Assembly (NCBI RefSeq): GCF_988243305.1
Contig: NZ_OZ547136.1
Strand: one strand, 5' to 3'
Length of the DNA stretch: 64,000 nucleotides
Part shown: positions 788 through 56,346 of the stretch, in pieces
How positions within the stretch are numbered: position 1 is the stretch's first letter
Layout of the letters: each line of letters starts with the position of its first letter
Program-made: the position numbers and the translations under genes
The notes under the pieces: model-generated
Database searches by the model: none
Told to the model about the DNA's origin: nothing
Seen by the model: the letters and a program-made list of their open reading frames with translations, nothing else

Positions 788-806
788 TTGCAGCCTCTCA
801 TAATAA

Positions 807-822
807 CTGTGATTTTATACAG
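807..822. promoter_or_regulatory. LexA (SOS) box upstream of yebG
   Basis: ctgtgattttatacag = CTGT-N8-ACAG palindrome about 20 bp upstream of the yebG start. Confidence 0.6.
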
Positions 823-920
823 TATATTTCTTTTCGGTTGGGAAATCAACATCAGCAATAAAGACACGCGCAAACGTTTTCGTTTATACTGCGCGCGGAA
901 TTAATCAGGGGATATTCGTT

Positions 921-16019: not shown

Positions 16020-16070
16020 ATGACGCTCCTGCGTAATGAATCAAAGATAATGCTTATGATAAAAAAATGC

Positions 16071-16086
16071 TGGATAGATATCCAGC
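16071..16086. promoter_or_regulatory. LexA box of the ruvAB operon
   Basis: ctggatagatatccag palindrome about 50 bp upstream of the ruvA start. Confidence 0.6.
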
Positions 16087-16829
16087 GAAGGATGAAGAAA
16101 ACTTGCGAGGCGTCCCGATGTTCTGAAAAATGACGCAGTATAATTTTTTCTACAGGTTATATTGGAAGCAAATATTTAAATATTACATATTCAGTGAAAA
16201 AATGCGTAATAAAAATACACATTGCGCCTCCTGAAAAAATAAATTTTTTATGCTATTACGTATATTCATATCTATTTCAATGGAATGACAACGTGAATAT
16301 TAATTATCCTGCTGAATATGAAATTGGTGATATCATCTTTACATGTATAGGTGCTGCCTTATTTGGTCAAATATCAGCTGCATCAAATTGCTGGAGTAAT
16401 CACGTCGGGATCATTATCGGTCATAACGGTGAAGACTTTCTGGTTGCAGAAAGCCGTGTTCCCCTCTCAACCATCACTACGCTATCCCGTTTTATTAAAC
16501 GCTCTGCTAATCAACGCTATGCTATAAAGCGATTAGACGCCGGGCTAACAGAACAACAAAAACAACGAATTGTTGAACAGGTTCCCTCCCGGCTACGCAA
16601 ACTTTACCACACCGGTTTTAAATACGAATCTTCGCGCCAGTTCTGTTCAAAATTTGTCTTTGATATTTATAAAGAGGCACTATGTATTCCGGTGGGTGAA
16701 ATAGAGACGTTTGGAGAACTGTTAAACAGCAATCCAAATGCAAAACTCACTTTCTGGAAATTCTGGTTCCTGGGTTCTATTCCGTGGGAGCGTAAAACCG
16801 TCACGCCAGCCAGTTTGTGGCATCATCCG

Positions 16830-16851: not shown

Positions 16852-18060
16852 TCATAATTTCCCCAAAGCGTAACCATGTGTGAATAAATTTTGAGCTAGT
16901 AGGGTTGCAGCCACGAGTAAGTCTTCCCTTGTTATTGTGTAGCCAGAATGCCGCAAAACTTCCATGCCTAAGCGAACTGTTGAGAGTACGTTTCGATTTC
17001 TGACTGTGTTAGCCTGGAAGTGCTTGTCCCAACCTTGTTTCTGAGCATGAACGCCCGCAAGCCAACATGTTAGTTGAAGCATCAGGGCGATTAGCAGCAT
17101 GATATCAAAACGCTCTGAGCTGCTCGTTCGGCTATGGCGTAGGCCTAGTCCGTAGGCAGGACTTTTCAAGTCTCGGAAGGTTTCTTCAATCTGCATTCGC
17201 TTCGAATAGATATTAACAAGTTGTTTGGGTGTTCGAATTTCAACAGGTAAGTTAGTTGCTAGAACCCATGGCTCCTTTGCCGACGCTGAGTAGATTTTAG
17301 GTGACGGGTGGTGACAATGAGTCCGTGTCGAGCGCTGATTTTTTCGGCCTTTAGAGCGAGATTTATACAATAGAATTTGGCATGAGATTGGATTGCTTTT
17401 AGTCAGCCTCTTATAGCCTAAAGTCTTTGAGTGACTAGATGACATATCATGTAAGTTGCTGATAGGTTTCCAGTTTTCCGCTCCTAGGTCTGCATATTGT
17501 ACTTTTCCTCTTACTCGACTTAACCAGTACCAACCCAGCTTCTCAACGGATTTATACCATGGCACTTTAAAGCCAGCATCACTGACAATGAGCGGTGTGG
17601 TGTTACTCGGTAGAATGCTCGCAAGGTCGGCTAGAAATTGGTCATGAGCTTTCTTTGAACATTGCTCTGAAAGCGGGAACGCTTTCTCATAAAGAGTAAC
17701 AGAACGACCGTGTAGTGCGACTGAAGCTCGCAATACCATAAGTCGTTTTTGCTCACGAATATCAGACCAGTCAACAAGTACAATGGGCATCGTATTGCCC
17801 GAACAGATAAAGCTAGCATGCCAACGGTATACAGCGAGTCGCTCTTTGTGGAGGTGACGATTACCTAACAATCGGTCGATTCGTTTGATGTTATGTTTTG
17901 TTCTCGCTTTGGTTGGCAGGTTACGGCCAAGTTCGGTAAGAGTGAGAGTTTTACAGTCAAGTAATGCGTGGCAAGCCAACGTTAAGCTGTTGAGTCGTTT
18001 TAAGTGTAATTCGGGGCAGAATTGGTAAAGAGAGTCGTGTAAAATATCGAGTTCGCACAT
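16852..18060 (-). CDS. IS10 transposase
   Basis: 402-aa ORF (MCELDILHDSLYQFCPELHLKRLNSL...) matching remembered Tn10/IS10 transposase. Confidence 0.9.
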   Translation of the reverse strand: MCELDILHDSLYQFCPELHLKRLNSLTLACHALLDCKTLTLTELGRNLPTKARTKHNIKRIDRLLGNRHLHKERLAVYRWHASFICSGNTMPIVLVDWSDIREQKRLMVLRASVALHGRSVTLYEKAFPLSEQCSKKAHDQFLADLASILPSNTTPLIVSDAGFKVPWYKSVEKLGWYWLSRVRGKVQYADLGAENWKPISNLHDMSSSHSKTLGYKRLTKSNPISCQILLYKSRSKGRKNQRSTRTHCHHPSPKIYSASAKEPWVLATNLPVEIRTPKQLVNIYSKRMQIEETFRDLKSPAYGLGLRHSRTSSSERFDIMLLIALMLQLTCWLAGVHAQKQGWDKHFQANTVRNRNVLSTVRLGMEVLRHSGYTITREDLLVAATLLAQNLFTHGYALGKL

Positions 18061-22778: not shown

Positions 22779-22870
22779 TTTACATCGGTCTGCCGCAATG
22801 GTCGCATCCTAAATGGGTGCGGTTGGGGATCACCAGCCTTGAAGAGTATGCCCGCCACTTTAACTGCGTG
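22775..22870 (+). pseudogene. yecE: 5' fragment of yecE truncated by prophage integration
   Basis: Encodes [32 protein letters not shown], then diverges into AT-rich phage DNA with a stop within a few codons. Confidence 0.7.
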
Positions 22871-22880
22871 ATACGGAATT
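22860..22880. other. Prophage/host junction (bacterial attachment site within yecE)
   Basis: Point where yecE homology ends; exact core not determinable from one junction. Confidence 0.5.
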
Positions 22881-22998
22881 TTTAAAAATCACTAAAGAAC
22901 GCCCAAGAGCATGTTTTTTATTTAGAAGAATCAAAGCGTTGTATTTCCATGTCATATAAAAATCGGCAAAGTTCATATGTAACAAAGTGTCCCAATCA

Positions 22999-23046
22999 TG
23001 CCCCAAAATGCCCCACAACAAATATTTTTGCCCCATGCATGCCCCA
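22999..23046. repeat. Four phased TGCCCCA repeats
   Basis: tgcccca at 22999, 23009, 23029 and 23040, spaced about one or two helical turns. Confidence 0.6.
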
Positions 23047-23067
23047 AAAAATCACTTTCCTTCACCC

Positions 23068-23117
23068 TTGACACTGTTTATCCATACAGTTAAAAATGAT
23101 ACTGTATACAAACACAG
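23068..23117 (+). promoter_or_regulatory. Sigma70-like promoter with two LexA boxes upstream of the dinI-like gene
   Basis: -35 TTGACA (23068-23073), 17-bp spacer, -10 taaaaat (23091-23097); CTGT-N8-ACAG boxes at 23074-23089 and 23102-23117. Confidence 0.6.
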
Positions 23118-23132
23118 TGTAGAGGGACTTTT

Positions 23133-23381
23133 ATGCGTATTGAAATCTGCATAGCCAAAGAAAAAATGACTAAAATGCCAACCGGTGCTGTGGATGCGTT
23201 AAAGGAAGAATTAACTCGGCGCATCAGTAAGCGTTATGACGATGTAGAAGTGATCGTAAAAGCCACCAGCAATGATGGGCTTTCTGTTACACGCACAGCA
23301 GATAAGGATTCTGCAAAAACATTTGTTCAGGAGACTCTGAAAGATACCTGGGAGTCTGCTGACGAGTGGTTTGTTCACTAA
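23133..23381 (+). CDS. DinI-family DNA damage-inducible protein
   Basis: 82-aa ORF, size and sequence character of DinI; SOS boxes upstream. Confidence 0.8.
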
Positions 23382-23448
23382 TAAACACGTAAAATCGGTA
23401 ACGGCTGGAAATCATTCAATACTCGCACTATCGAAAGTTCACCAGCCA

Positions 23449-23495
23449 ACCGCAGCACGTCCTGCATACGTCGTGTCTGCGGTTTTTCTTTTTCG
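23449..23495 (+). terminator. Intrinsic terminator after the dinI-like gene
   Basis: Hairpin ccgcagcacg...cgtgtctgcgg followed by tttttcttttt. Confidence 0.55.
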
Positions 23496-23496
23496 C

Positions 23497-23766
23497 TTAC
23501 ATTGTGTCTGGTTCTTCCGGCCACTCAATATCAGGTGCAGTTGATGTATCAACACGGTTCAGCAACACCCGATATTTATTCCATGCCTCCAGCAACGATC
23601 TTTCTTCCTCCGTTGCGATTTCCAGATCTACAGCATCCTGCAGTGGCGCAATATACTCACTGAATTCCTGGATGTAGAACTGTGTGGTGACGGTCTTCCA
23701 GCCATTCGGCTCCTGCTGTATCGAAGCATACCAGGCTATTTCAATATCGCTATGCTGCGGCAGCAT
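23497..23766 (-). pseudogene. Remnant tail fibre assembly (Tfa-like) gene
   Basis: 89-aa ORF whose last ~50 aa (...[45 protein letters not shown]) duplicate the C-terminus of the tfa at 24546..25130. Confidence 0.65.
23515..23665. repeat. Direct repeat of the tfa 3' end, copy 1
   Basis: About 90% identical over ~150 bp to 24568..24718. Confidence 0.7.
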
Positions 23767-23822: not shown

Positions 23823-24491
23823 ATGGTGAAATCAATGAAAAAAAACACAGATGATGGGGCTAAAATTTACACACCACTTACCCTAAAGCTTTATGACTGG
23901 TGGGTTTTGGGAGTATCAAATCGGCTTGCATGGGGATGTCCTACAAAGGAACACCTTCTTCCACACTTTCTGGAACATTTAGGTAACAACCATCTGGATA
24001 TTGGTGTTGGAACTGGGTTTTATCTTACTCACGTACCTGAGAGTAGTCTGATATCTTTAATGGATTTGAACGAAGCTAGCCTGAACGCGGCATCTACAAG
24101 GGCTGGGGAATCAAAAATTAAACATAAAATTAGCCATGATGTTTTTGAACCTTATCCCGCGGCGTTACATGGTCAATTTGATTCCATTTCCATGTTTTAC
24201 CTTCTTCACTGCCTGCCTGGAAATATATCTACAAAAAGCTGTGTAATACGCAATGCGGCGCAGGCCTTAACTGACGATGGAACTCTATACGGAGCCACAA
24301 TTCTTGGCGATGGAGTTGTGCACAATAGCTTCGGTCAAAAACTGATGCGCATTTACAATCAGAAAGGCATCTTTTCAAACACAAAAGATTCCGAAGAAGG
24401 CTTAACACATATACTCTCAGAGCATTTCGAGAATGTTAAAACCAAGGTTCAAGGTACTGTAGTAATGTTTTCCGCTTCAGGGAAAAAATAG
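23823..24491 (+). CDS. Class I SAM-dependent methyltransferase-like protein (cargo gene)
   Basis: 222-aa ORF with Rossmann motif-I-like LDIGVGTGFY; opposite strand to the tail genes; substrate unknown. Confidence 0.55.
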   Translation: MVKSMKKNTDDGAKIYTPLTLKLYDWWVLGVSNRLAWGCPTKEHLLPHFLEHLGNNHLDIGVGTGFYLTHVPESSLISLMDLNEASLNAASTRAGESKIKHKISHDVFEPYPAALHGQFDSISMFYLLHCLPGNISTKSCVIRNAAQALTDDGTLYGATILGDGVVHNSFGQKLMRIYNQKGIFSNTKDSEEGLTHILSEHFENVKTKVQGTVVMFSASGKK

Positions 24492-24497
24492 CATCCA

Positions 24498-24529
24498 ACC
24501 GCAGCACGTTCTTGCTTAAGACGTGCTGC
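24498..24529. terminator. Hairpin between the convergent methyltransferase-like gene and tfa
   Basis: Perfect 10-bp stem ccgcagcacg/cgtgctgcgg; T run on the minus-strand side. Confidence 0.5.
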
Positions 24530-24545
24530 GGCATAATCCCAATGA

Positions 24546-25130
24546 TTACTCACTGACAGGGTTCGTAGGCCACTCAATATCAGGTGCAGTTGATGTATCA
24601 ACACGGTTCAGCAACACCCGATACTTCTTCCAGGCTTCCAGCAACGAGTTTTCTTCCTCCGTTGCGATTTCCAGATCTGCAGCATCCTGAAGCGGCGCAA
24701 TATGCTCACTGGCTACCTGCATCAGGTTGTTTTTTGTTTCTTCCGCCTCCCGGATCCGGAACAGTTTTTCTGCTTCCGTATCCTTCACCCAGGCTGTGCC
24801 GTTCCACTTCTGAAACTCCCCTTCCGGCGATAACCAGGTAACATTTTCCGGTAACGGACCGAGTTCAGAAATAAATAACGCGTCGCCGGAAGCCACGTCA
24901 TAAACCGTTTTACCCCGATGGTCTTCAAAGAGATGCCACGATGACTCATCACTGTTGAAAACAGCCACGAAGCCAGCAGGAATATCTGGTGGTGCAATAT
25001 CGGTACTGTTTGCTGGCAGACCTGTATGAGGCGGAATATATGCGTCACCTTCACCAATAAATTCATTAGTTCCGGCCAGCAGATTATAAATTTTTATGGT
25101 CCGTGGTTGTTCACTCATTCTGAATGCCAT
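24546..25130 (-). CDS. tfa: Tail fibre assembly protein
   Basis: 194-aa ORF matching remembered lambda Tfa ([34 protein letters not shown]). Confidence 0.9.
24568..24718. repeat. Direct repeat of the tfa 3' end, copy 2
   Basis: See copy 1. Confidence 0.7.
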
Positions 25131-34466: not shown

Positions 34467-37024
34467 CGTCCACCTCCGGAGAACAGGCCACCATCACGCA
34501 TCTGTGTCTGAATTTCATCACGGGCACCCTTGCGGGCCATGTCATACACCGCCTTCAGAGCAGCCGGACCTATCTGCCCGTTCGTGCCGTCGTTGTTAAT
34601 CACCACATGGTTATTCTGCTCAAACGTCCCGGACGCCTGCGACCGGCTGTCAGCCAGACTGCCCGGTGTACCGACATAACCACCGGTGGCATAGCCGCGC
34701 ATCAGCCGGTAGAGATTCCCCACGCCAATCCGGCTGGTTGCCTCCTTCGTGAAGACAAATTCACCACGGTGAACAATCCCCGCTGGCTCATATTTGCCGC
34801 CGGTTCCTGTGAATCCTCCGGTTGCAAAATGGAATTTCGCCGCAGCGGCCTGAATGGCTGTACCGCCTGACGCGGATGCGCCGCCACCAACAGCCCCGCC
34901 AATGGCGCTGCCGATACTCCCGACAATCCCCACCATTGCCTGCTTAAGCAGAATTTCTGTCATCATGGACAGCACGGAACGGGTGAAGCTGCGCCAGTTC
35001 TGCTCACTGCCGGTCAGCATCGCTGCCATATTCTGTGCAATACCATCAAAGGTCTGCGTGGCTGCACTTTTTACCTGCGACATACTGTCCGTGGCGCTCT
35101 CTTCCCACTCACTCCAGCCGGACTTCAGGCCTGCCATCCAGCTCCCGCGAAGCTGGTCTTCAGCCGCCCTGGTCTTTTTCTGCTCTGACATGACGTTATT
35201 CAGCGCCAGCGGATTATCGCCATACTGTTCCTTCAGGCGCTGTTCCGTGGCTTCCCGTTCTGCCTGCCGGTCAGTCAGCCCCCGGCTTTTCGCATCAATG
35301 GCGGCCCGTTTTGCCCGTTGCTGCTGTGCGAATTTATCCGCCTGCTGCGCCAGCGCGTTCAGGCGCTCCTGATACGTAACCTTGTCGCCAAGTGCAGCCA
35401 GCTGGCGTTTGTACTCCAGCGTCTCATCTTTATGCGCCAGCAGGGATTTCTCCTGTGCGGACAGCTGGCGACGTTGTGCCGCCTCCTCCAGTACCGCGAA
35501 CTGACTTTCTGCCTTCCACAAATCCCGGCGCTGCTGGCTGATTTTCTCATTCGCTCCGGCATGCTTCTCCAGCGTCCGGAGTTCTGCCTGAAGCGTCAGC
35601 AGGGCAGCATGAGCACTGTCTTCCTGACGATCGCCCGCAGACACCTTCACGCCGGACTGTTTCGGCTTTTTCAGCGTCGCTTCATAATCCTTTTTCGCCG
35701 CCGCCATCAGCGTGTTGTAATCTGCCTGCAGGATTTTCCCGTCTTTCAGGGCCTTGTTCAGTTCTTCCTGACGGGCGGTATATTTCTCCAGTGGCGTCCG
35801 CAGGCGTTCGTAAGCCTTCTGCGCCTCTTCGGTATATTTCAGCCGTGACGCTTCGGTATCGCTCTGCTGCTGCGCATTTTTGTCCTGTTGAGTCTGCTGC
35901 TCAGCCTTCTTTCGGGCGGCTTCAAGCGCAAGACGGGCCTTTTCACGATCATCCCAGTAACGCGCCCGCGCTTCATCGTTAACAAAATAATCATCCTTGC
36001 GCAGACTCCAGATGTCGTCCGCTTTCTTAAACGCAGCCTCTGCCTTAATCAGCATCTCCTGAGCGGTATCAGGACGACCAGTATCCAGCACCGCATCCCA
36101 CATGGATTTGAATGCTCGTGCTGTCCTGTCTGCCCAGGTCTCCAGCGTGCCCATGTTCTCTTTCAGGCGACGGGTCTGGTCATCAAACCCTTTCGTTGCT
36201 GCCTCGTTCGCCGCCTGCAATGCCCCGGCACCATCGCCGGAACGCTGCAACTGAGCAACATACGCAATCTGCTCCGCCGTCACGTTATGGAACTGGCGCG
36301 CCATCGCTGTCAGCCCCGACGTCGGGTCTGTGGTCAGCTTCCCGAAGGCTTCAGCGACCTTGTCCACCTCCACGCCGGATGCAGAGGAGAAACGCGCCAC
36401 ACTCTGGCTGATGGATGCAATCTGAGCCTCACCGCTTACTCCCGCCTTAACCAGTGCGCTGAGTGACTCGCTGGTCTGGTTAAACGTCAGCCCTGCCGCC
36501 TGCCCGGCTCTGGACAGGACCAGCATACGATCTGCCGTCAGACCCGACTGATTGCCGGAAAGGACCAGCGTTTTGTTGAAATCGGACAGGGTTGAGTTGC
36601 CCTGATACCAGGCATACGCCAGCGCACTGGTCGCCACCGCCAGCGAGGTGGCCCCGACCATCGGCAGGGTGATCGCACCGGCAAGCCCCCTGAACATGGG
36701 GATCATCCCGCCGAAGGAGTCCTTCACCTGACCACCCTGTTGCAGCAGGATCAGCCACGGACTTTGCCCGCCTGCAAGCTGCGTGGCCACGTCGGTGAAC
36801 TGCGCAGGCAGCATACGCATGGCGGCTTTATACTGCCCGACGGAAATCCCCGCTTTCTGTGCAGCCAGTGCCTGTCGGCTCAGCGACTGTTCAACGACTG
36901 CCGCTGTTTTTTTCGCATCACTTTCCGTACCGGAAAAATGACGCCTGACTCTGGCCATCTGCTCGTCAAATCTGGCCGCATCCAGACTTAAATCAACGAC
37001 CAGATCGCCTACCGGTTCAGCCAT
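34463..37024 (-). CDS. H: Tail tape measure protein H
   Basis: 853-aa ORF, same length as lambda H; coiled-coil-rich centre. Confidence 0.95.
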   Translation of the reverse strand: MAEPVGDLVVDLSLDAARFDEQMARVRRHFSGTESDAKKTAAVVEQSLSRQALAAQKAGISVGQYKAAMRMLPAQFTDVATQLAGGQSPWLILLQQGGQVKDSFGGMIPMFRGLAGAITLPMVGATSLAVATSALAYAWYQGNSTLSDFNKTLVLSGNQSGLTADRMLVLSRAGQAAGLTFNQTSESLSALVKAGVSGEAQIASISQSVARFSSASGVEVDKVAEAFGKLTTDPTSGLTAMARQFHNVTAEQIAYVAQLQRSGDGAGALQAANEAATKGFDDQTRRLKENMGTLETWADRTARAFKSMWDAVLDTGRPDTAQEMLIKAEAAFKKADDIWSLRKDDYFVNDEARARYWDDREKARLALEAARKKAEQQTQQDKNAQQQSDTEASRLKYTEEAQKAYERLRTPLEKYTARQEELNKALKDGKILQADYNTLMAAAKKDYEATLKKPKQSGVKVSAGDRQEDSAHAALLTLQAELRTLEKHAGANEKISQQRRDLWKAESQFAVLEEAAQRRQLSAQEKSLLAHKDETLEYKRQLAALGDKVTYQERLNALAQQADKFAQQQRAKRAAIDAKSRGLTDRQAEREATEQRLKEQYGDNPLALNNVMSEQKKTRAAEDQLRGSWMAGLKSGWSEWEESATDSMSQVKSAATQTFDGIAQNMAAMLTGSEQNWRSFTRSVLSMMTEILLKQAMVGIVGSIGSAIGGAVGGGASASGGTAIQAAAAKFHFATGGFTGTGGKYEPAGIVHRGEFVFTKEATSRIGVGNLYRLMRGYATGGYVGTPGSLADSRSQASGTFEQNNHVVINNDGTNGQIGPAALKAVYDMARKGARDEIQTQMRDGGLFSGGGR

Positions 37025-51849: not shown

Positions 51850-53703
51850 TTATGATGATGCCGGTGCATTTATCTCCAGCACCAGACTTTCTATCTCAAC
51901 GCCATACGCTGCATTTTTGGTAATATCCGTCAGCGTCAGCGCATTCAGCCCCAGTGTCAGACTGTCTTTTATGACCTGGAATGCCGGGCCAGCCACTCCA
52001 TTCAGTTTCGGAGTAACCGTGGCACTGCCGGCGGTGAACACCAGTTCCAGCGTCTGCCAGTCATTACTGTAATTCCCGAACTCGCCCAACTTTGTGTTTC
52101 CTGCTTTCTTGTGATGCATCAGATTCAGTTTGCCGTCTGTGGTCTGGGTGAAGAACGACATCAGGAACGGGTTACCAGTCCCGGCCATCGCCACGACGTC
52201 AGGTAACGCTACATCGGTATACAGATAAATTCCCAGGCCGAACTGGTTGTTGGTCAGTGCGCCTGACAGTCGAAACTTACAGCTCAGTCTGCCACCCCGT
52301 GTCAGCAGGGAGACTGCGTCATCCACCGGATGCATCAGGGACCAGGTTTTATTGCTCTGCTTGGCGATCTTAAATACACCACCCGACAACTGAATTCCGC
52401 CGTCCTTAATGGTCCAGCCCTGCGCAGCAGCCTCTCCGGCTGTCGGCAACAGGGAGATTGTGCGTACGGATGCATCTTCAGACGGCCCCGATGGCGTGTT
52501 GCCGCCGGGCGAGGGTTTGATTTCCGGTGCCTTACCACTGATGAAAGCTGAGGTGCGCCCGGCTGCGTTCAGAATAGCGGTTGCCATACGATCCGGAATA
52601 ATGCTCCTGCGCGCCCATGAACTGAAATGTGTCGGGCGGTTTGATGATACCTGGTTTCCATTCGTTCTCGATGCCGCACCGTAATATCCTGATGCCGGAA
52701 TATCCGGATCTTCTGCCGGTGCGTTAGTGGCGGTATTGACGCCGTTACCGTCTGTCATGAAGGGCACAAAATAAACGCCCTCACTCTCCCTGTTTTTATA
52801 CCCGCCGTACACGGTGTCGTACTGGGTAGCGTATGTATTTTTCCAGTAATACGTCGTGTCACCACAAATCCACGGCACATTTACAGCACTACCACCATGA
52901 CACTGCGCGTTAAACACAGTGAGGTCAGCACGAAACTGCTTCAGCATGGCTGTAAACAGCGCAGGTTGCTGTGCGTAGGTGGCGGCGTTCATGTCAAACT
53001 CTCCCTGCATCCAGCACACCGCCAGCAACACATTTTTCGGGTTCTTCTGTAATGCAGCTTTAGTGCGCGCAATCAGGTCCTGATATAACGGTTTACCCAC
53101 ACCCCAGCGTGCCGAATCCTGGCTGGCCCCCGCGTCCGCACTGAATGTCCCCTCCGCGCCCTTGGTGAATGCCGAACCACCACGACAGCATGGTACCAGC
53201 AGGATCCCCGCGTTATTCGGGATATACGGGAGCAGTTTTTTGGCAATATGTAAGCCCTGGCCGACACAGCCGTACTGCCCTTTGCTCAGGTCTGCCTTCG
53301 GATGATTCAGCGTACTCATATCCTGCACATCATGCAGACAGTGGTCAGCCGGGATGATGTCGTTATACGTACAACTCTCTCCACCCGGAGTTACCGTGCT
53401 GCGGCGCGCCAGCTGTTTAATGCGCGGATCCGGAGCATCGTAAGAATCCGGTAACGGAAGCCCTTCACCGTAGGCCATGCCGTTGGACTGTCCGGCAAGC
53501 ACAACCACGTAGAACCAGTCCGGCTCAGATGAAGGGCCGACCTGTGGATCTCCTTCAATAGCCACCGCCTGCATCAGTGTGTACGGCGTAATGGCAACCG
53601 GTCCGCCATATGGCTGCCAGCCCTCTTTCAGTTTGTGTGTCAGCTTTTCCGCAAGGTCTGACGGCGACGCCGCCCTGACAACATCATAGTGTTTAAATGC
53701 CAT
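51850..53703 (-). CDS. Prophage sialate O-acetylesterase (NanS-p / YjhS-like)
   Basis: 617-aa ORF in the position this gene holds in Stx-type phages, between the tRNA cluster and S. Confidence 0.8.
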   Translation of the reverse strand: MAFKHYDVVRAASPSDLAEKLTHKLKEGWQPYGGPVAITPYTLMQAVAIEGDPQVGPSSEPDWFYVVVLAGQSNGMAYGEGLPLPDSYDAPDPRIKQLARRSTVTPGGESCTYNDIIPADHCLHDVQDMSTLNHPKADLSKGQYGCVGQGLHIAKKLLPYIPNNAGILLVPCCRGGSAFTKGAEGTFSADAGASQDSARWGVGKPLYQDLIARTKAALQKNPKNVLLAVCWMQGEFDMNAATYAQQPALFTAMLKQFRADLTVFNAQCHGGSAVNVPWICGDTTYYWKNTYATQYDTVYGGYKNRESEGVYFVPFMTDGNGVNTATNAPAEDPDIPASGYYGAASRTNGNQVSSNRPTHFSSWARRSIIPDRMATAILNAAGRTSAFISGKAPEIKPSPGGNTPSGPSEDASVRTISLLPTAGEAAAQGWTIKDGGIQLSGGVFKIAKQSNKTWSLMHPVDDAVSLLTRGGRLSCKFRLSGALTNNQFGLGIYLYTDVALPDVVAMAGTGNPFLMSFFTQTTDGKLNLMHHKKAGNTKLGEFGNYSNDWQTLELVFTAGSATVTPKLNGVAGPAFQVIKDSLTLGLNALTLTDITKNAAYGVEIESLVLEINAPASS

Positions 53704-54192
53704 GAATCCTCCCGGCCGGGATAATATTGTGAGTAAAATGAGGAGCGGGCTGAAGTCCGGAAGTTACAGGACAATGGCAGAAGAGAGACAATAGCCCGCA
53801 ATACGAAAAAGGCCGCGCTATTGCGCAGAGTGATTACTGTCAGATATTATTCGCCAGCTGAAATATTACTTCACGTTTTGTTGTTTATTCCTTGCCGCCC
53901 GCGTCTCCCTGCGCGGGATTTTTTTGTCCATAAGAAAGCCCCTCCGGAGAGGGGCTGGAGAGTGGCGCTATGTGCCATTGCATGGTGCCGGGTGCCTCCC
54001 GGTGAATTCAGTACCAGCACCTGAATCCGCGATTATCCCATATACCTACTCGCTGATTGCCCCTCCGCACAGGGGGATTCACCATGCCAGTTTCTTTTAA
54101 CAAACTCCCCGCAAAACAGACAACTGTCAACCGTCTGAATTGTGAGACATTTAAAAAAAAGGCCCGCAAAAGCGAGCCAGGGAAAATAAGTG

Positions 54193-54269
54193 TGGCGCGT
54201 TGTACTGGATTCGAACCAGTGACCGATTGCTTAGAAGGCAATTGCTCTGTCCGGCTGAGCTAACAACGC
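54193..54269 (-). tRNA. argO: tRNA-Arg (anticodon UCU), argO-like
   Basis: Hand-folded cloverleaf; anticodon loop CTTCTAA; T-arm GGTTCGAATCC; 3' CCA encoded. Confidence 0.8.
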
Positions 54270-54282
54270 AGGGTACAGATAA

Positions 54283-54359
54283 TGGACCGCCATCGAGGAC
54301 TCGAACCCCGCGCAACCAGCTTCGAAGGCTGGCGCTCTATCCTGATGAGCTAATGGCGG
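54283..54359 (-). tRNA. argN: tRNA-Arg (anticodon UCG), argN-like
   Basis: Hand-folded; anticodon loop CTTCGAA; T-arm GGTTCGAGTCC; 3' CCA encoded. Confidence 0.75.
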
Positions 54360-54366
54360 TATGTGA

Positions 54367-54438
54367 TGGTGGCCCTTGCTGGATTTGAACCAGCGACCTG
54401 GCGATTATGAGTCGCTCTCACCACTGAGCTAAAGGGCC
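54367..54438 (-). tRNA. ileZ: tRNA with CAU anticodon (Ile2/Met type), ileZ-like
   Basis: Hand-folded; anticodon loop CTCATAA; T-arm GGTTCAAATCC; short D-loop; 3' CCA encoded. Confidence 0.7.
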
Positions 54439-54600
54439 GGGAGCCGCATAATAACGACGCGTAATTAATTCTTCAATATCATCCGTTCTGGCTGACTAAA
54501 TCCTGTACTTCCCGAACCGTCTGCTCAAAACATTCAGTCTCCAGCTCAACGCCAATTGCACGACGCCCGAGCGCCAGTGCTGCTTTGACGCTACGGACAT

Positions 54601-54629
54601 AAAAAAGCCAGCCACTGGGGGAGGCTGGC
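54601..54629 (-). terminator. Intrinsic terminator upstream of the tRNA cluster
   Basis: gccagcc...ggctggc hairpin followed on the minus strand by TTTTTT. Confidence 0.5.
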
Positions 54630-55263
54630 GAAACTCGTAGAGCAAAAGTGTTGTTACACTAACTTCGTCACAGGGTTATCCTGCAATACTCAAAATACAC
54701 AATATTTACAAAACTAATAGTATACAAGGCGATCTTTAAGATTTTGTTATAAATTATTGCCTTTCTCCTCTTTCCATGAGCTTTCTGGGTAGCCACAGAA
54801 TTCCGGGTACAGAAAAACCCGCTCAGCGGCGGGTTTAAGCTGTGTGACGAAGTAACCACTCTTAACAGCATAACCAATTTTTTACGTACGTAAACCACTA
54901 AATGATATTTGCGAGAATGCTACCGAGTATTGAAAACACCACTACAAATACATAAGCAAATCTCAACAAATAACCAACAAATAATTTCCAGTGTTATTTT
55001 TAGCCGGTTTAAATTGAACCTTCAAATTATAGAGCACTTATAAATAACAGCCGTTAATATAAATTGGCTAATAGATTTATTTTTATTCAGCCAAGAGCCA
55101 TGAATAGGATTCGATAGAAAAAAGTTCAGATAAAAATAGAGATCTACTTCACAAATCAAACGAGAAACCAAAACTAACATCTTGAAATAATCACATTGAT
55201 TAGATGAATATTTATCGCGCAGTGACATCATTTTTTAATAATAGTTCAAAAAAAGGGCTCACG

Positions 55264-56346
55264 ATGAAAAAATTAACAGTGGCAATTTCTGCTGTAGCTG
55301 CATCAGTACTGATGGCGATGTCTGCTCAGGCAGCTGAAATTTATAATAAAGACAGTAACAAGCTGGATCTGTACGGGAAAGTTAATGCTAAGCACTATTT
55401 CTCCTCTAATGATGCAGATGATGGTGATACTACTTATGCCCGTCTTGGCTTCAAAGGTGAAACCCAAATCAACGATCAACTGACTGGTTTCGGTCAGTGG
55501 GAATATGAATTCAAAGGCAACCGCGCTGAATCTCAAGGTTCCTCCAAAGATAAAACCCGTCTTGCCTTCGCTGGCCTGAAATTCGGTGACTACGGCTCAA
55601 TCGATTACGGCCGTAACTACGGTGTAGCATACGACATCGGTGCGTGGACTGACGTTCTGCCAGAATTCGGTGGCGATACCTGGACCCAAACAGATGTGTT
55701 CATGACTGGTCGCACCACTGGTGTTGCAACTTATCGTAACAACGACTTCTTTGGTCTGGTTGATGGTCTGAACTTTGCTGCTCAGTATCAGGGTAAAAAT
55801 GACCGCACTGACGTAACTGAAGCTAATGGTGATGGTTTCGGTTTCTCCACTACTTATGAGTATGAAGGATTCGGTGTAGGTGCAACCTATGCTAAATCTG
55901 ACCGCACTAATAATCAGGTTATCTACGGTAACAACAGCCTGAATGCATCTGGTCAAAATGCTGAAGTATGGGCAGCTGGTCTGAAATATGATGCGAACAA
56001 CATCTATCTGGCTACCACCTATTCTGAAACCCAGAACATGACTGTTTTTGGTAATAACCATATTGCCAACAAAGCACAAAACTTCGAAGTAGTTGCACAA
56101 TATCAGTTCGACTTCGGTCTGCGTCCGTCCGTTGCTTACCTGCAATCTAAAGGAAAAGACTTGGGTGCGTGGGGTGATCAGGACCTGGTTGAATATATTG
56201 ATGTAGGTGCAACCTATTACTTCAACAAAAATATGTCCACTTTTGTTGATTACAAAATCAACCTGATTGATAAGAGCGATTTCACGAAAGCATCTGGCGT
56301 TGCTACCGATGATATCGTTGCTGTAGGTATGGTTTACCAGTTCTAA
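55264..56346 (+). CDS. Prophage-encoded OmpC/OmpF-family porin (NmpC/Lc-like)
   Basis: ORF 55204..56346 trimmed to the [23 protein letters not shown] signal peptide; ends in ...VGMVYQF; opposite strand to the late operon. Confidence 0.9.

What the first reader, a model, noticed from the sequence alone, without database searches (positions are those of the whole stretch)
23060..23381. dinI-like gene next to the attachment junction under two LexA boxes
The dinI-like gene has a near-consensus -35 (TTGACA) and two CTGT-N8-ACAG boxes, one between -35 and -10 and one over the start region, which would tie its expression tightly to SOS induction. A phage-borne DinI could modulate RecA-dependent repressor cleavage and so prophage induction.
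Basis: partly seen in the sequence, partly recalled or inferred. Interest (0 to 1): 0.4.

Follow-up and report, generated by a model that had tools for sequence, protein, structure and literature searches.

The report
SOS-controlled phage dinI gene cassette
A prophage inserted in the E. coli yecE gene carries a small self-contained gene for a DinI-type RecA-binding protein behind a promoter covered by two strong LexA (DNA-damage repressor) sites; this is a common, already annotated kind of phage cargo, and the only unusual part is an undescribed conserved RNA-like stretch just after the gene.

Summary
An 82-aa DinI-family ORF lies at 23133-23381 (Pfam E=1e-19). It sits behind a consensus -35 (TTGACA, 23068-73) and two CTGT-N8-ACAG boxes. 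Box 1 (23074-89) fills the -35/-10 spacer; box 2 (23102-17) covers the predicted transcription start.

Both boxes score like proven E. coli SOS operators. The only other comparable sites in the 64 kb are the known yebG and ruvA boxes.

The unit is a moron: similarity to other phages starts at the -35 and stops after a terminator. It begins 198 bp inside a lambdoid prophage integrated in yecE. The two-box layout is kept, at fixed distances from the ATG, in mEp460, P-EibC, BP-4795 and Stx1/Stx2 phages. About a quarter of complete E. coli genomes carry the cassette.

LexA control of phage dinI homologues is already proven for the Salmonella Gifsy prophages, which have one box and a downstream antirepressor. 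All eight RecA-contact residues of E. coli DinI are kept or conservatively replaced.

It is untested, already published as speculation, and deletions in Gifsy had no effect.

A side finding is a roughly 95-nt conserved element after the gene. It is restricted to Escherichia, is not annotated in any record I inspected, and may be a regulatory RNA.

The parts
22870..22871 (.). Host/prophage junction. yecE is cut after codon 32 and prophage DNA starts at 22871.
   Evidence: Alignment with K-12 yecE is identical up to 22870 and unrelated after it. Related records are named 'PPyecE' and 'Stx2_..._yecE'.
23064..23493 (+). The whole dinI moron cassette: promoter, gene, 3' UTR and terminator.
   Evidence: Similarity to about 150 phage records starts at 23064-23068 and ends at 23482-23488. 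The upstream flank switches between unrelated families exactly at the -35. GC is 0.43 here, against 0.48-0.56 over the tail-fibre genes and 0.52-0.62 further into the tail region.
23068..23073 (+). -35 hexamer TTGACA (consensus).
   Evidence: It is kept as TTGACA in most relatives, with TTGATA or TTGGCA in a few.
23072..23091 (+). LexA box 1, CACTGTTTATCCATACAGTT (core 23074-89). It fills the -35/-10 spacer.
   Evidence: Exact CTGT-N8-ACAG. Matrix score 22.3. Present 41-42 nt from the ATG in all att-proximal cassettes examined.
23091..23097 (+). -10 region, TAAAAA or AAAAAT (17- or 18-nt spacer).
   Evidence: Promoter scan, 10 of 12 matches.
23100..23119 (+). LexA box 2, TACTGTATACAAACACAGTG (core 23102-17). 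It covers the predicted transcription start.
   Evidence: Exact CTGT-N8-ACAG. Matrix score 21.2. Present 13 nt from the ATG in all att-proximal cassettes examined.
23122..23126 (+). Shine-Dalgarno GAGGG, 6 nt before the ATG.
   Evidence: Read directly from the sequence.
23133..23381 (+). dinI-like coding sequence, 82 aa.
   Evidence: Pfam PF06183, PHROG 189, PDB 1GHH/7YWA. RecA-contact residues are conserved.
23389..23447 (+). Conserved part of the 3' UTR: GTAAAATCGGTAAC, then GGCTGG, a 33-nt loop, and CCAGCC. It is an independent module found with and without dinI.
   Evidence: Both flanks vary between contexts. It is 95% identical to a core-genome relic whose flanks are 68-78% identical. No Rfam family matches. 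The stem shows no covariation.
23450..23493 (+). Hairpin CCGCAGCACG...CGTGTCTGCGG (23450-82) followed by TTTTTCTTTTT: the intrinsic terminator of the cassette.
   Evidence: The predicted fold of the 120-nt UTR is -31.3 kcal/mol, z=-3.9. Five of 8 counted pairs change on both sides, and 0 of 500 shuffles reach the observed covariation. The hairpin folds in nearly all of 53 variants.

Best explanation
This is an SOS-inducible moron, an autonomous gene cassette that a lambdoid prophage carries beside its attachment site.

Regulation. A sigma-70 promoter has a consensus -35. In undamaged cells it is held off by two LexA dimers, one lying between the -35 and -10 and one over the transcription start. 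After DNA damage, RecA filaments drive LexA self-cleavage. The promoter then fires independently of the phage's own repressor and makes an 82-aa DinI-family protein. Transcription stops at a hairpin terminator about 100 nt after the stop codon.

Protein action. [quoted passage not shown] It therefore adds to the cell's DinI pool during SOS. The result is stabilised filaments and competition with other groove binders (UmuD, CI-type repressors, LexA).

Shown here:
- the gene family;
- promoter and operator sequences of full strength, and their conservation;
- the cassette boundaries;
- conservation of the RecA-contact residues.

Inferred:
- LexA binding and damage induction, by analogy with Gifsy dinI homologues and host dinI;
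- RecA binding;
- any consequence for mutagenesis or prophage induction, whose direction is unknown. My best guess is a damping or delay of cleavage of slowly cleaved substrates.
For: - Family.
- Operators: exact matches. Their scores equal those of validated sites, and the window's two known SOS boxes (yebG, ruvA) serve as internal positive controls.
- Promoter overlap.
- Conservation: the two-box layout sits at fixed distances from the ATG in mEp460, 1720a-02, PhiR12_2, P-EibC, BP-4795 and Stx1a/2c/2d phages, although the box sequences differ. It is also present in every upstream variant found among 80 viral contigs.
- Moron boundaries.
- Terminator.
- Contact residues: L21, E24, W71, W77 and F78 are identical; L13 becomes M, E69 becomes D, D76 becomes E.
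- Experimental precedent: Gifsy dinI homologues have a LexA box next to the promoter. The protein accumulates after mitomycin C (PMC3121763). Nalidixic acid induces these genes 4.6- to 23-fold (PMC8072944).
- Klebsiella dinI: LexA ChIP and damage induction (PMC10907235).
- Prevalence: a place covering at least 80% of the cassette occurs in 1406 of 5426 complete E. coli genomes.
Against: - No measurement of LexA binding or of induction exists for this clade in the literature I could search.
- The -10 is weak (AAAAAT or TAAAAA).
- In the Stx and BP-4795 sub-clade, box 1 is degenerate (CTGG...ACAG or ACAA, scores 14.7-15.7).
- The 28-bp centre-to-centre spacing is not a whole number of helical turns, so cooperative binding is not implied.
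- Non-polar deletions of the Gifsy-1 and Gifsy-3 dinI homologues had no significant effect on induction.
- The BP-4795 copy has R in place of the contact residue W71, so not every copy may be functional.
Confidence: 0.78

Rival explanations
1. The cassette is kept because it benefits the lysogen, not because it controls the phage's own induction. Extra DinI during SOS stabilises RecA filaments for repair and restrains UmuD cleavage and mutagenesis. Any effect on the prophage switch is negligible.
For: - Known biochemistry of host DinI: filament stabilisation, and shared groove elements with UmuD (PMC9926225).
- The Gifsy dinI deletions did not change induction.
- The cassette has the typical moron position and autonomy.
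- It persists in many defective prophages, at up to 9 places per genome.
Against: The host already has its own LexA-controlled dinI. No fitness data exist. The repeated linkage of DinI domains with LexA-controlled antirepressors (Tum of phage 186, Gifsy operons; PHROG 189 profile of 151 positions) suggests a link to phage induction.
Confidence: 0.35
2. An important product of the cassette is RNA. The conserved element of about 95 nt after the stop codon (23389-23482) would be released from the SOS-induced transcript, or transcribed on its own where dinI is absent. It would act as a regulatory RNA, as DinR does from the Klebsiella dinI 3' end.
For: - It is an independent module with sharp boundaries, found behind dinI in about half of 88 contexts and without it in the rest.
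- Its first 62 nt are 95% identical to a core-genome relic whose flanks are 68-78% identical.
- The terminal hairpin covaries and is more stable on the sense strand in 41 of 53 variants.
- It is present in 5411 of 5426 E. coli genomes, with a median of 3 places.
- Precedent: DinR.
Against: - No expression data are available.
- The first stem shows no covariation.
- Many variants lack a good U-run.
- An own promoter is weak or absent in most contexts.
- No target was identified. The predicted pairing with the dinI ribosome-binding region is marginal (2-6% of shuffles do as well) and is not kept in Stx-type cassettes.
- Conservation could instead reflect gene conversion with resident prophages, or a role as a recombination linker between modules.
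Confidence: 0.25
3. It is a Gifsy-type induction module. On this reading the LexA-controlled dinI is merely the first gene of an operon whose real function is a small antirepressor that inactivates the phage repressor.
For: This is the architecture of the closest experimentally studied relatives. The mEp237, Gifsy-1 and Klebsiella ST846 copies do have a small ORF after dinI.
Against: Tested here and not met. The stop codon is followed by the conserved non-coding element and a terminator. The next ORFs are a convergent tail-fibre-assembly fragment and a separate methyltransferase moron. The gene lies next to the attachment site, not in the nin region. The protein belongs to a different clade: 82 aa and 42.5% identity to Gifsy-1.
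Confidence: 0.04
4. The boxes are chance or decayed sequence, and the gene is silent cargo of a defective prophage.
For: The prophage is only partly visible in the window, and many such cassettes sit in defective prophages.
Against: Both boxes score as well as validated operators, and nothing else in the visible 41 kb of prophage scores above 11. The layout is conserved across diverged phages, including mEp460, a phage with a complete genome record. The ORF is intact, with its contact residues kept.
Confidence: 0.04

Closest known systems
[quoted passage not shown] 2011, PMC3121763)
   Same: A phage-borne DinI-family gene sits directly behind a sigma-70 promoter with a LexA operator. It is induced by DNA damage independently of the phage repressor.
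   Different: - Gifsy has one operator, 19 nt from the ATG and overlapping the -10. Here there are two, at 41 and 13 nt.
- The Gifsy gene lies in the nin region and is followed by an antirepressor gene. Here it lies beside the attachment site, stands alone, and is followed by a terminator.
- The proteins differ: 77 aa against 82 aa, 42.5% identity.
Chromosomal dinI of E. coli K-12 (b1061) and the RecA-DinI complex (PDB 1GHH, 7YWA)
   Same: Same fold family, about 49% identity, and all RecA-contact residues kept or conservatively replaced. Both are LexA-controlled.
   Different: The host promoter has a single operator over the -10 (ACCTGTATAAATAACCAGTA, 19 nt from the ATG) and is not homologous to the phage promoter. 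The host 3' UTR is a short simple terminator.
Annotated DinI-like cassettes of lambdoid coliphages (mEp460 gp21, phage cdtI gp30, CP-1639, BP-4795 ORF85, dinI of Stx1/Stx2 phages)
   Same: This is the same cassette. The protein is 100% identical to that of mEp460, and the DNA is 91-97% identical to many records. The mEp460 record already annotates the promoter.
   Different: None of the records I inspected annotates the LexA boxes or the 3' element. The upstream flank differs with the integration module.
DinR, the Hfq-dependent sRNA cut from the 3' end of Klebsiella pneumoniae dinI mRNA (PMC10907235)
   Same: A LexA-controlled dinI transcript with an unusually long, lineage-specific 3' UTR ending in a terminator hairpin.
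   Different: The sequences are unrelated. No processing, Hfq binding or ftsZ pairing has been shown or predicted here. The element here also occurs without dinI.
Tum of coliphage 186 (LexA-controlled antirepressor with a DinI-like C-terminal half)
   Same: A DinI domain under LexA control in a temperate phage. It belongs to the same PHROG, where the window protein matches profile positions 71-149 of 151.
   Different: The window protein has no N-terminal antirepressor half.

Membership tests
DinI family (Pfam PF06183) | Domain match above the curated threshold over the full domain | tested here: met
   70.9 bits against a cutoff of 24.2, profile positions 1-63 of 63. Full-length match to E. 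coli DinI, E=3.7e-13.
DinI family (Pfam PF06183) | RecA-contact residues of E. coli DinI: hydrophobic pocket L13, L21, W71, W77, F78 and acidic patch E24, E69, D76 (PMC9926225) | tested here: met
   Five are identical and three are conservative (L13 to M, E69 to D, D76 to E), from the alignments and the residue list.
DinI family (Pfam PF06183) | Binds RecA nucleoprotein filaments and modulates coprotease activity | not testable with these tools
   Needs purified protein.
LexA (SOS) regulon promoter | Operator matching the E. coli SOS box as well as validated sites do | tested here: met
   Scores 22.3 and 21.2 against a training median of 19.7. The known yebG and ruvA boxes, not in the training set, score 21.4 and 19.2, and the next best site scores 10.8. 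The matrix was built from sites recalled from the literature.
LexA (SOS) regulon promoter | Operator overlaps the core promoter, so that bound LexA excludes RNA polymerase | tested here: met
   Box 1 lies in the spacer and box 2 over the predicted start. The start site itself is predicted, not mapped.
LexA (SOS) regulon promoter | Operators conserved in orthologous promoters | tested here: met
LexA (SOS) regulon promoter | LexA binding and RecA/LexA-dependent induction | not testable with these tools
   Shown only for relatives (Gifsy, Klebsiella and host dinI).
Moron (autonomous cargo cassette of a lambdoid phage) | Own promoter and own terminator flanking one gene | tested here: met
   Promoter. 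Terminator hairpin plus U-run.
Moron (autonomous cargo cassette of a lambdoid phage) | Boundaries of similarity between phages coincide with the cassette, and it sits between phage modules | tested here: met
   Similarity begins at the -35 and ends after the terminator. The cassette lies between the attachment site and the tail-fibre genes and is transcribed against the late genes.
Gifsy-type LexA-controlled antirepressor operon | A small antirepressor gene (gfoA/gftA type) directly downstream of dinI in the same transcript | tested here: not met
   A terminator follows the gene and there is no conserved ORF. Reading frames across the 3' element are broken by indels among the variants.
DinR-like 3'-end-derived sRNA | A stable, Hfq-bound RNA processed from the dinI 3' end that base-pairs with a target mRNA | not tested
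   Only sequence conservation and the hairpin could be examined. No Rfam match was found.

The most novel reading that the evidence does not exclude
The conserved element of about 95 nt behind the gene (23389-23482) is an undescribed, Escherichia-specific, prophage-borne regulatory RNA module. In this cassette the double-LexA promoter places it under SOS control, giving a phage counterpart of Klebsiella DinR. Elsewhere it survives on its own. Selected copies sit at the end of the K-12 Qin prophage and in a fossil prophage end between ecpE and ykgJ that nearly all E. coli share.
Probability: 0.22. Interest if true: 0.65.

Novelty: new member of a known kind. Interest (0 to 1): 0.3.

Why it matters
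The cassette sits in a quarter of complete E. coli genomes and in many Shiga-toxin phages, at up to nine places per genome. If it works as the sequence indicates, polylysogens raise their DinI dose several-fold during the SOS response. That could shift RecA-dependent events that matter clinically, namely toxin-phage induction and SOS mutagenesis. This is a modest, testable point rather than a surprise. LexA-controlled phage dinI genes are known, and the induction idea is already in print. The conserved RNA-like element is the only part that could open something new.

Tried and rejected
1. Antirepressor ORF downstream, as in Gifsy: none found; a terminator follows.

2. Other LexA boxes in the visible prophage (22.9-64 kb): none above score 11. 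The CTGT-N8-ACAG at 34957 lies inside a tail gene and scores below 8.

3. Type of the phage's own repressor: it cannot be judged. The window ends in the replication and Rha/Ash region and the immunity region lies beyond 64 kb.

4. Known RNA family for the 3' element: none in Rfam at E<1, in the window or in the K-12 and LY180 copies. No tRNA or tmRNA. No paper contains the sequence. It is not mentioned in the EHEC Hfq-CRAC paper or the Pas sRNA preprint.

5. Coding potential of the element: rejected. Indels between variants break every frame, and variation shows no three-base periodicity.

6. A lambda sib-like RNase III site: rejected. There is no long duplex; the first stem has only 6 bp.

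7. An own promoter for the element: a conserved TAAAAT sits at its 5' edge, but a reasonable -35 occurs in only a few contexts.

8. Pairing in cis between the element loop and the dinI ribosome-binding region: it appears in the predicted fold of the whole mRNA, but the energy is only marginally better than shuffles. Stx-type cassettes changed the SD region without a compensating change in the loop.

9. RNAalifold on the raw alignment missed hairpin 2 because of a misplaced bulge gap. I therefore counted named pairs instead.

10. Searches for direct SOS-induction data on the E. coli phage dinI clade found nothing.

Full report
**What is there.** The window is E. coli chromosome: yebF, yebG, purT, the eda-edd-zwf region, ruvAB, ruvC, aspS and yecD. 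This runs up to yecE. Identity to K-12 yecE stops after position 22870, at codon 32. From 22871 to the end of the window lies a lambdoid prophage with its late genes on the minus strand. These include side tail fibre, tail, head and terminase genes, lysis genes, a NanS-type esterase, a porin, and replication genes. Its nearest relatives are the yecE-integrated phages 'PPyecE' and 'Stx2_..._yecE', at 91-92% identity over about half of the region 47-64 kb. No stx gene is present.

**The observation.**
- The ORF at 23133-23381 encodes an 82-aa protein of the DinI family. Evidence: Pfam PF06183 at E=1.1e-19, PHROG 189 'RecA filament binding protein DinI' at E=5.7e-31, and E. coli DinI of PDB 1GHH/7YWA at E=3.7e-13 over its full length.
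- TTGACA lies at 23068-73. The promoter scan pairs it with AAAAAT at 23092-97.
- CTGT-N8-ACAG occurs exactly at 23074-89 and 23102-17.

**Are the boxes more than chance?** The loose pattern is expected 0.77 times in the window and is found four times. I built a 20-nt weight matrix from 22 K-12 LexA sites recalled from the literature; this is my own knowledge, not a tool library.
- The two boxes score 22.3 and 21.2, against a training-set median of 19.7.
- The only other sites of that class in the 64 kb are upstream of yebG (805-824, score 21.4) and of ruvA (16068-87, score 19.2).
- Both of those are textbook SOS operators and neither was in the training set.
- The next best site scores 10.8.

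The window therefore supplies its own positive controls, and the dinI boxes are as good as they are.

**Promoter anatomy.** Box 1 begins at the base after the -35 and ends one or two bases before the -10, so it fills the whole spacer. Box 2 begins 5 nt after the -10 and covers the expected start point, near 23103-05. A GAGGG Shine-Dalgarno lies 6 nt before the ATG. Two bound LexA dimers would block both RNA polymerase binding and open-complex formation. The box centres are 28 bp apart, which is not a whole number of helical turns. I therefore do not claim cooperative binding.

**It is a moron.** Similarity to about 150 phage records begins at 23064-68, exactly at the -35, and ends at 23482-88, just after a hairpin with a U-run. 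Among 80 viral contigs encoding the same protein, the sequence upstream of the -35 falls into two unrelated families. One is the yecE-type attachment arm found here. The other is the 3' end of an integrase gene, as in mEp460. From the -35 onward all contigs agree, and both boxes are intact in every variant. The mEp460 record annotates the gene and even the promoter, but not the operators. A place covering at least 80% of the cassette occurs in 1406 of 5426 complete E. coli genomes, with up to nine places per genome.

**Two clades of phage dinI.** I fetched upstream regions from diverged homologues and scanned them with the same matrix.
- The att-proximal 82-aa clade comprises the window, mEp460, 1720a-02, PhiR12_2, P-EibC, BP-4795 and the Stx1a, Stx2c and Stx2d phages. 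All have two boxes ending 41-42 and 13 nt from the ATG, although the box sequences differ. P-EibC, for example, has CACTGTTTATACATACAGTT and TACTGTACATAACCACAGTT. In the Stx and BP-4795 group box 1 is weaker, at 14.7-15.7.
- The 77-aa clade comprises Gifsy-1, mEp237 and a Klebsiella phage. It lies in the nin region, has one box 18-19 nt from the ATG, and is followed by a small ORF.
- K-12 dinI has one box 19 nt from the ATG, over its -10.

The phage promoter is thus not a copy of the host one. The double operator is a conserved property of this clade.

**What is already known.**
- Lemire et al. (PMC3121763) showed that the Gifsy dinI homologues head LexA-controlled operons. The DinI protein accumulates after mitomycin C, and the downstream antirepressor causes induction. 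Non-polar dinI deletions had no significant effect on induction.
- A Salmonella SOS survey measured 4.6- to 23-fold induction of these genes by nalidixic acid (PMC8072944).
- A paper on Stx2a phages already states that a phage DinI, if expressed, would limit induction (PMC8456039).
- I found no experiment on the E. coli att-proximal clade.

**The protein.** The RecA-DinI cryo-EM study defines the contacts (PMC9926225). RecA F203 inserts into a pocket made of DinI L13, L21, W71, W77 and F78. The acidic residues E24, E69 and D76 face RecA K232, R243 and K245. The same study reports that LexA, UmuD and lambda CI use the same RecA elements. In the window protein the equivalent residues are M15, L23, W73, W79, F80, E26, D71 and E78. 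That makes five identical and three conservative. Binding in the RecA groove is therefore the expected activity. Its net effect cannot be read from sequence: it could be filament stabilisation, competition with repressor or UmuD, or both depending on dose.

**Most likely mechanism and rivals.** My best reading, at confidence about 0.78 for the regulatory part, is as follows. The cassette is silent in the lysogen and is switched on by LexA cleavage independently of the phage repressor. It then adds a RecA-groove binder to the SOS response.
I rate the host-benefit reading about as likely as the induction reading.
- A Gifsy-type antirepressor operon is excluded here, because a terminator follows the gene.
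- Chance or decay is very unlikely given conservation and scores.

**A side finding: the 3' element.** After the stop codon come about 95 conserved nucleotides. They comprise GTAAAATCGGTAAC, then GGCTGG, a 33-nt loop, CCAGCC, then a hairpin CCGCAGCACG...CGTGTCTGCGG and a U-run (z=-3.9).

*Distribution.*
- The 109-nt 3' UTR (23382-23490) is found in 5411 of 5426 complete E. coli genomes, with a median of three places. No annotated feature lay under the match in 28 of the 30 records listed.
- It is in at least 120 viral contigs.
- Among 100,044 species representatives, an exact 20-mer occurs only in Escherichia. The exceptions are one chance hit and a few contaminant-like short contigs.

*It is an independent module.*
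- It has sharp 5' and 3' edges, and both flanks vary.
- In about half of 88 distinct contexts no dinI precedes it.
- K-12 has a copy 170 bp inside the left end of the Qin prophage.
- Nearly all E. coli share a fossil prophage end between ecpE and yagU. It reads decayed dinI 3' end, element, ykgJ, then a tail-fibre-assembly remnant that Rfam calls IS009.
- In that fossil the first 62 nt of the element are 95% identical to the window, while the flanking remnants are 68-78%.

*Structure.*
- The terminal hairpin is supported by covariation. Five of eight counted pairs change on both sides, in 19 cells against 6.0 ± 2.1 in shuffles, and 0 of 500 shuffles reach the observed value.
- The hairpin is more stable on the dinI-sense strand in 41 of 53 variants.
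- The first stem shows no covariation, so that part is conserved as sequence rather than as a proven structure.

*No known counterpart.* No Rfam family matches and no paper holds the sequence.

*Interpretation.* By analogy with DinR, the Hfq-dependent sRNA cut from the Klebsiella dinI 3' end (PMC10907235), a regulatory RNA is an attractive reading. I could show neither expression nor a target. A predicted pairing with the dinI ribosome-binding region is marginal and is not conserved. I give this reading about 0.2-0.25.

**Verdict.** The functional part is plausible, not new and untested. The object is an ordinary and widespread member of a known kind, a LexA-controlled phage dinI moron. Its distinguishing features are a conserved double operator and a monocistronic layout beside the attachment site. 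Interest is low to moderate. The undescribed 3' element is the only lead that could raise it.

Noticed in passing
window 23389-23493: A conserved, Escherichia-restricted element of about 95 nt follows the dinI stop codon. The first 62 nt are conserved as sequence, followed by a covarying hairpin. It occurs with or without dinI, at a median of 3 places per E. coli genome. It was not annotated in the records I inspected and has no Rfam family. It may be a regulatory RNA.
   Followed up: partly
window 22988-23050: Four or five copies of (A)TGCCCCA lie between the yecE junction and the -35, including an abutting inverted pair at 23025-23050. Similar GATGCCCCATT repeats precede the cassette in BP-4795 and in Stx1a/Stx2d phages. 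They are absent where an integrase gene abuts the promoter. They are likely integrase arm-type binding sites of the attachment region, directly next to the dinI promoter.
   Followed up: partly
window 24499-24531: A second copy of the terminal hairpin alone (CCGCAGCACG..CGTGCTGCGG) sits 8 nt after the stop of the methyltransferase gene. It matches the 3' hairpin of Rfam CssrB (RF02799) on the opposite strand. The stretch 'hairpin plus tail-fibre-assembly 3' end' is duplicated (23450-23766 and 24499-25130) around the inserted methyltransferase.
   Followed up: partly
window 23823-24491: A class I SAM-dependent methyltransferase gene (222 aa, PHROG 2132, function unknown) is carried as a second moron. 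It runs in the same direction as dinI, between two tail-fibre-assembly sequences.
   Followed up: no
window 23540-23743 (minus strand); LY180 locus L084 3066-3265: The truncated tail-fibre-assembly fragment matches Rfam IS009 at 115.4 bits, just under the gathering score of 117. In the LY180 locus examined (L084), IS009 lies next to ykgJ as part of a fossil prophage end: decayed dinI, element, ykgJ, then the tfa remnant.
   Followed up: partly
window 805-824 and 16068-16087: The known LexA operators of yebG and ruvAB are present and intact. They served as internal positive controls for the box scoring.
   Followed up: yes
window 16852-18060 (minus strand): An ORF of 402 aa with a DDE transposase domain lies in a low-GC stretch (0.40) between yebB and ruvC. 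It looks like an insertion sequence in the host chromosome.
   Followed up: no
window 51850-56346: A 380-aa porin gene on the opposite strand (55204-56346) sits where related phages carry stx, upstream of the NanS-type esterase gene (51850-53703). No stx gene is present.
   Followed up: no
locus L089 (phage BP-4795 dinI): The BP-4795 DinI-like protein has R in place of the RecA-contact residue W71, and its LexA box 1 is degenerate. This copy may be losing function.
   Followed up: no
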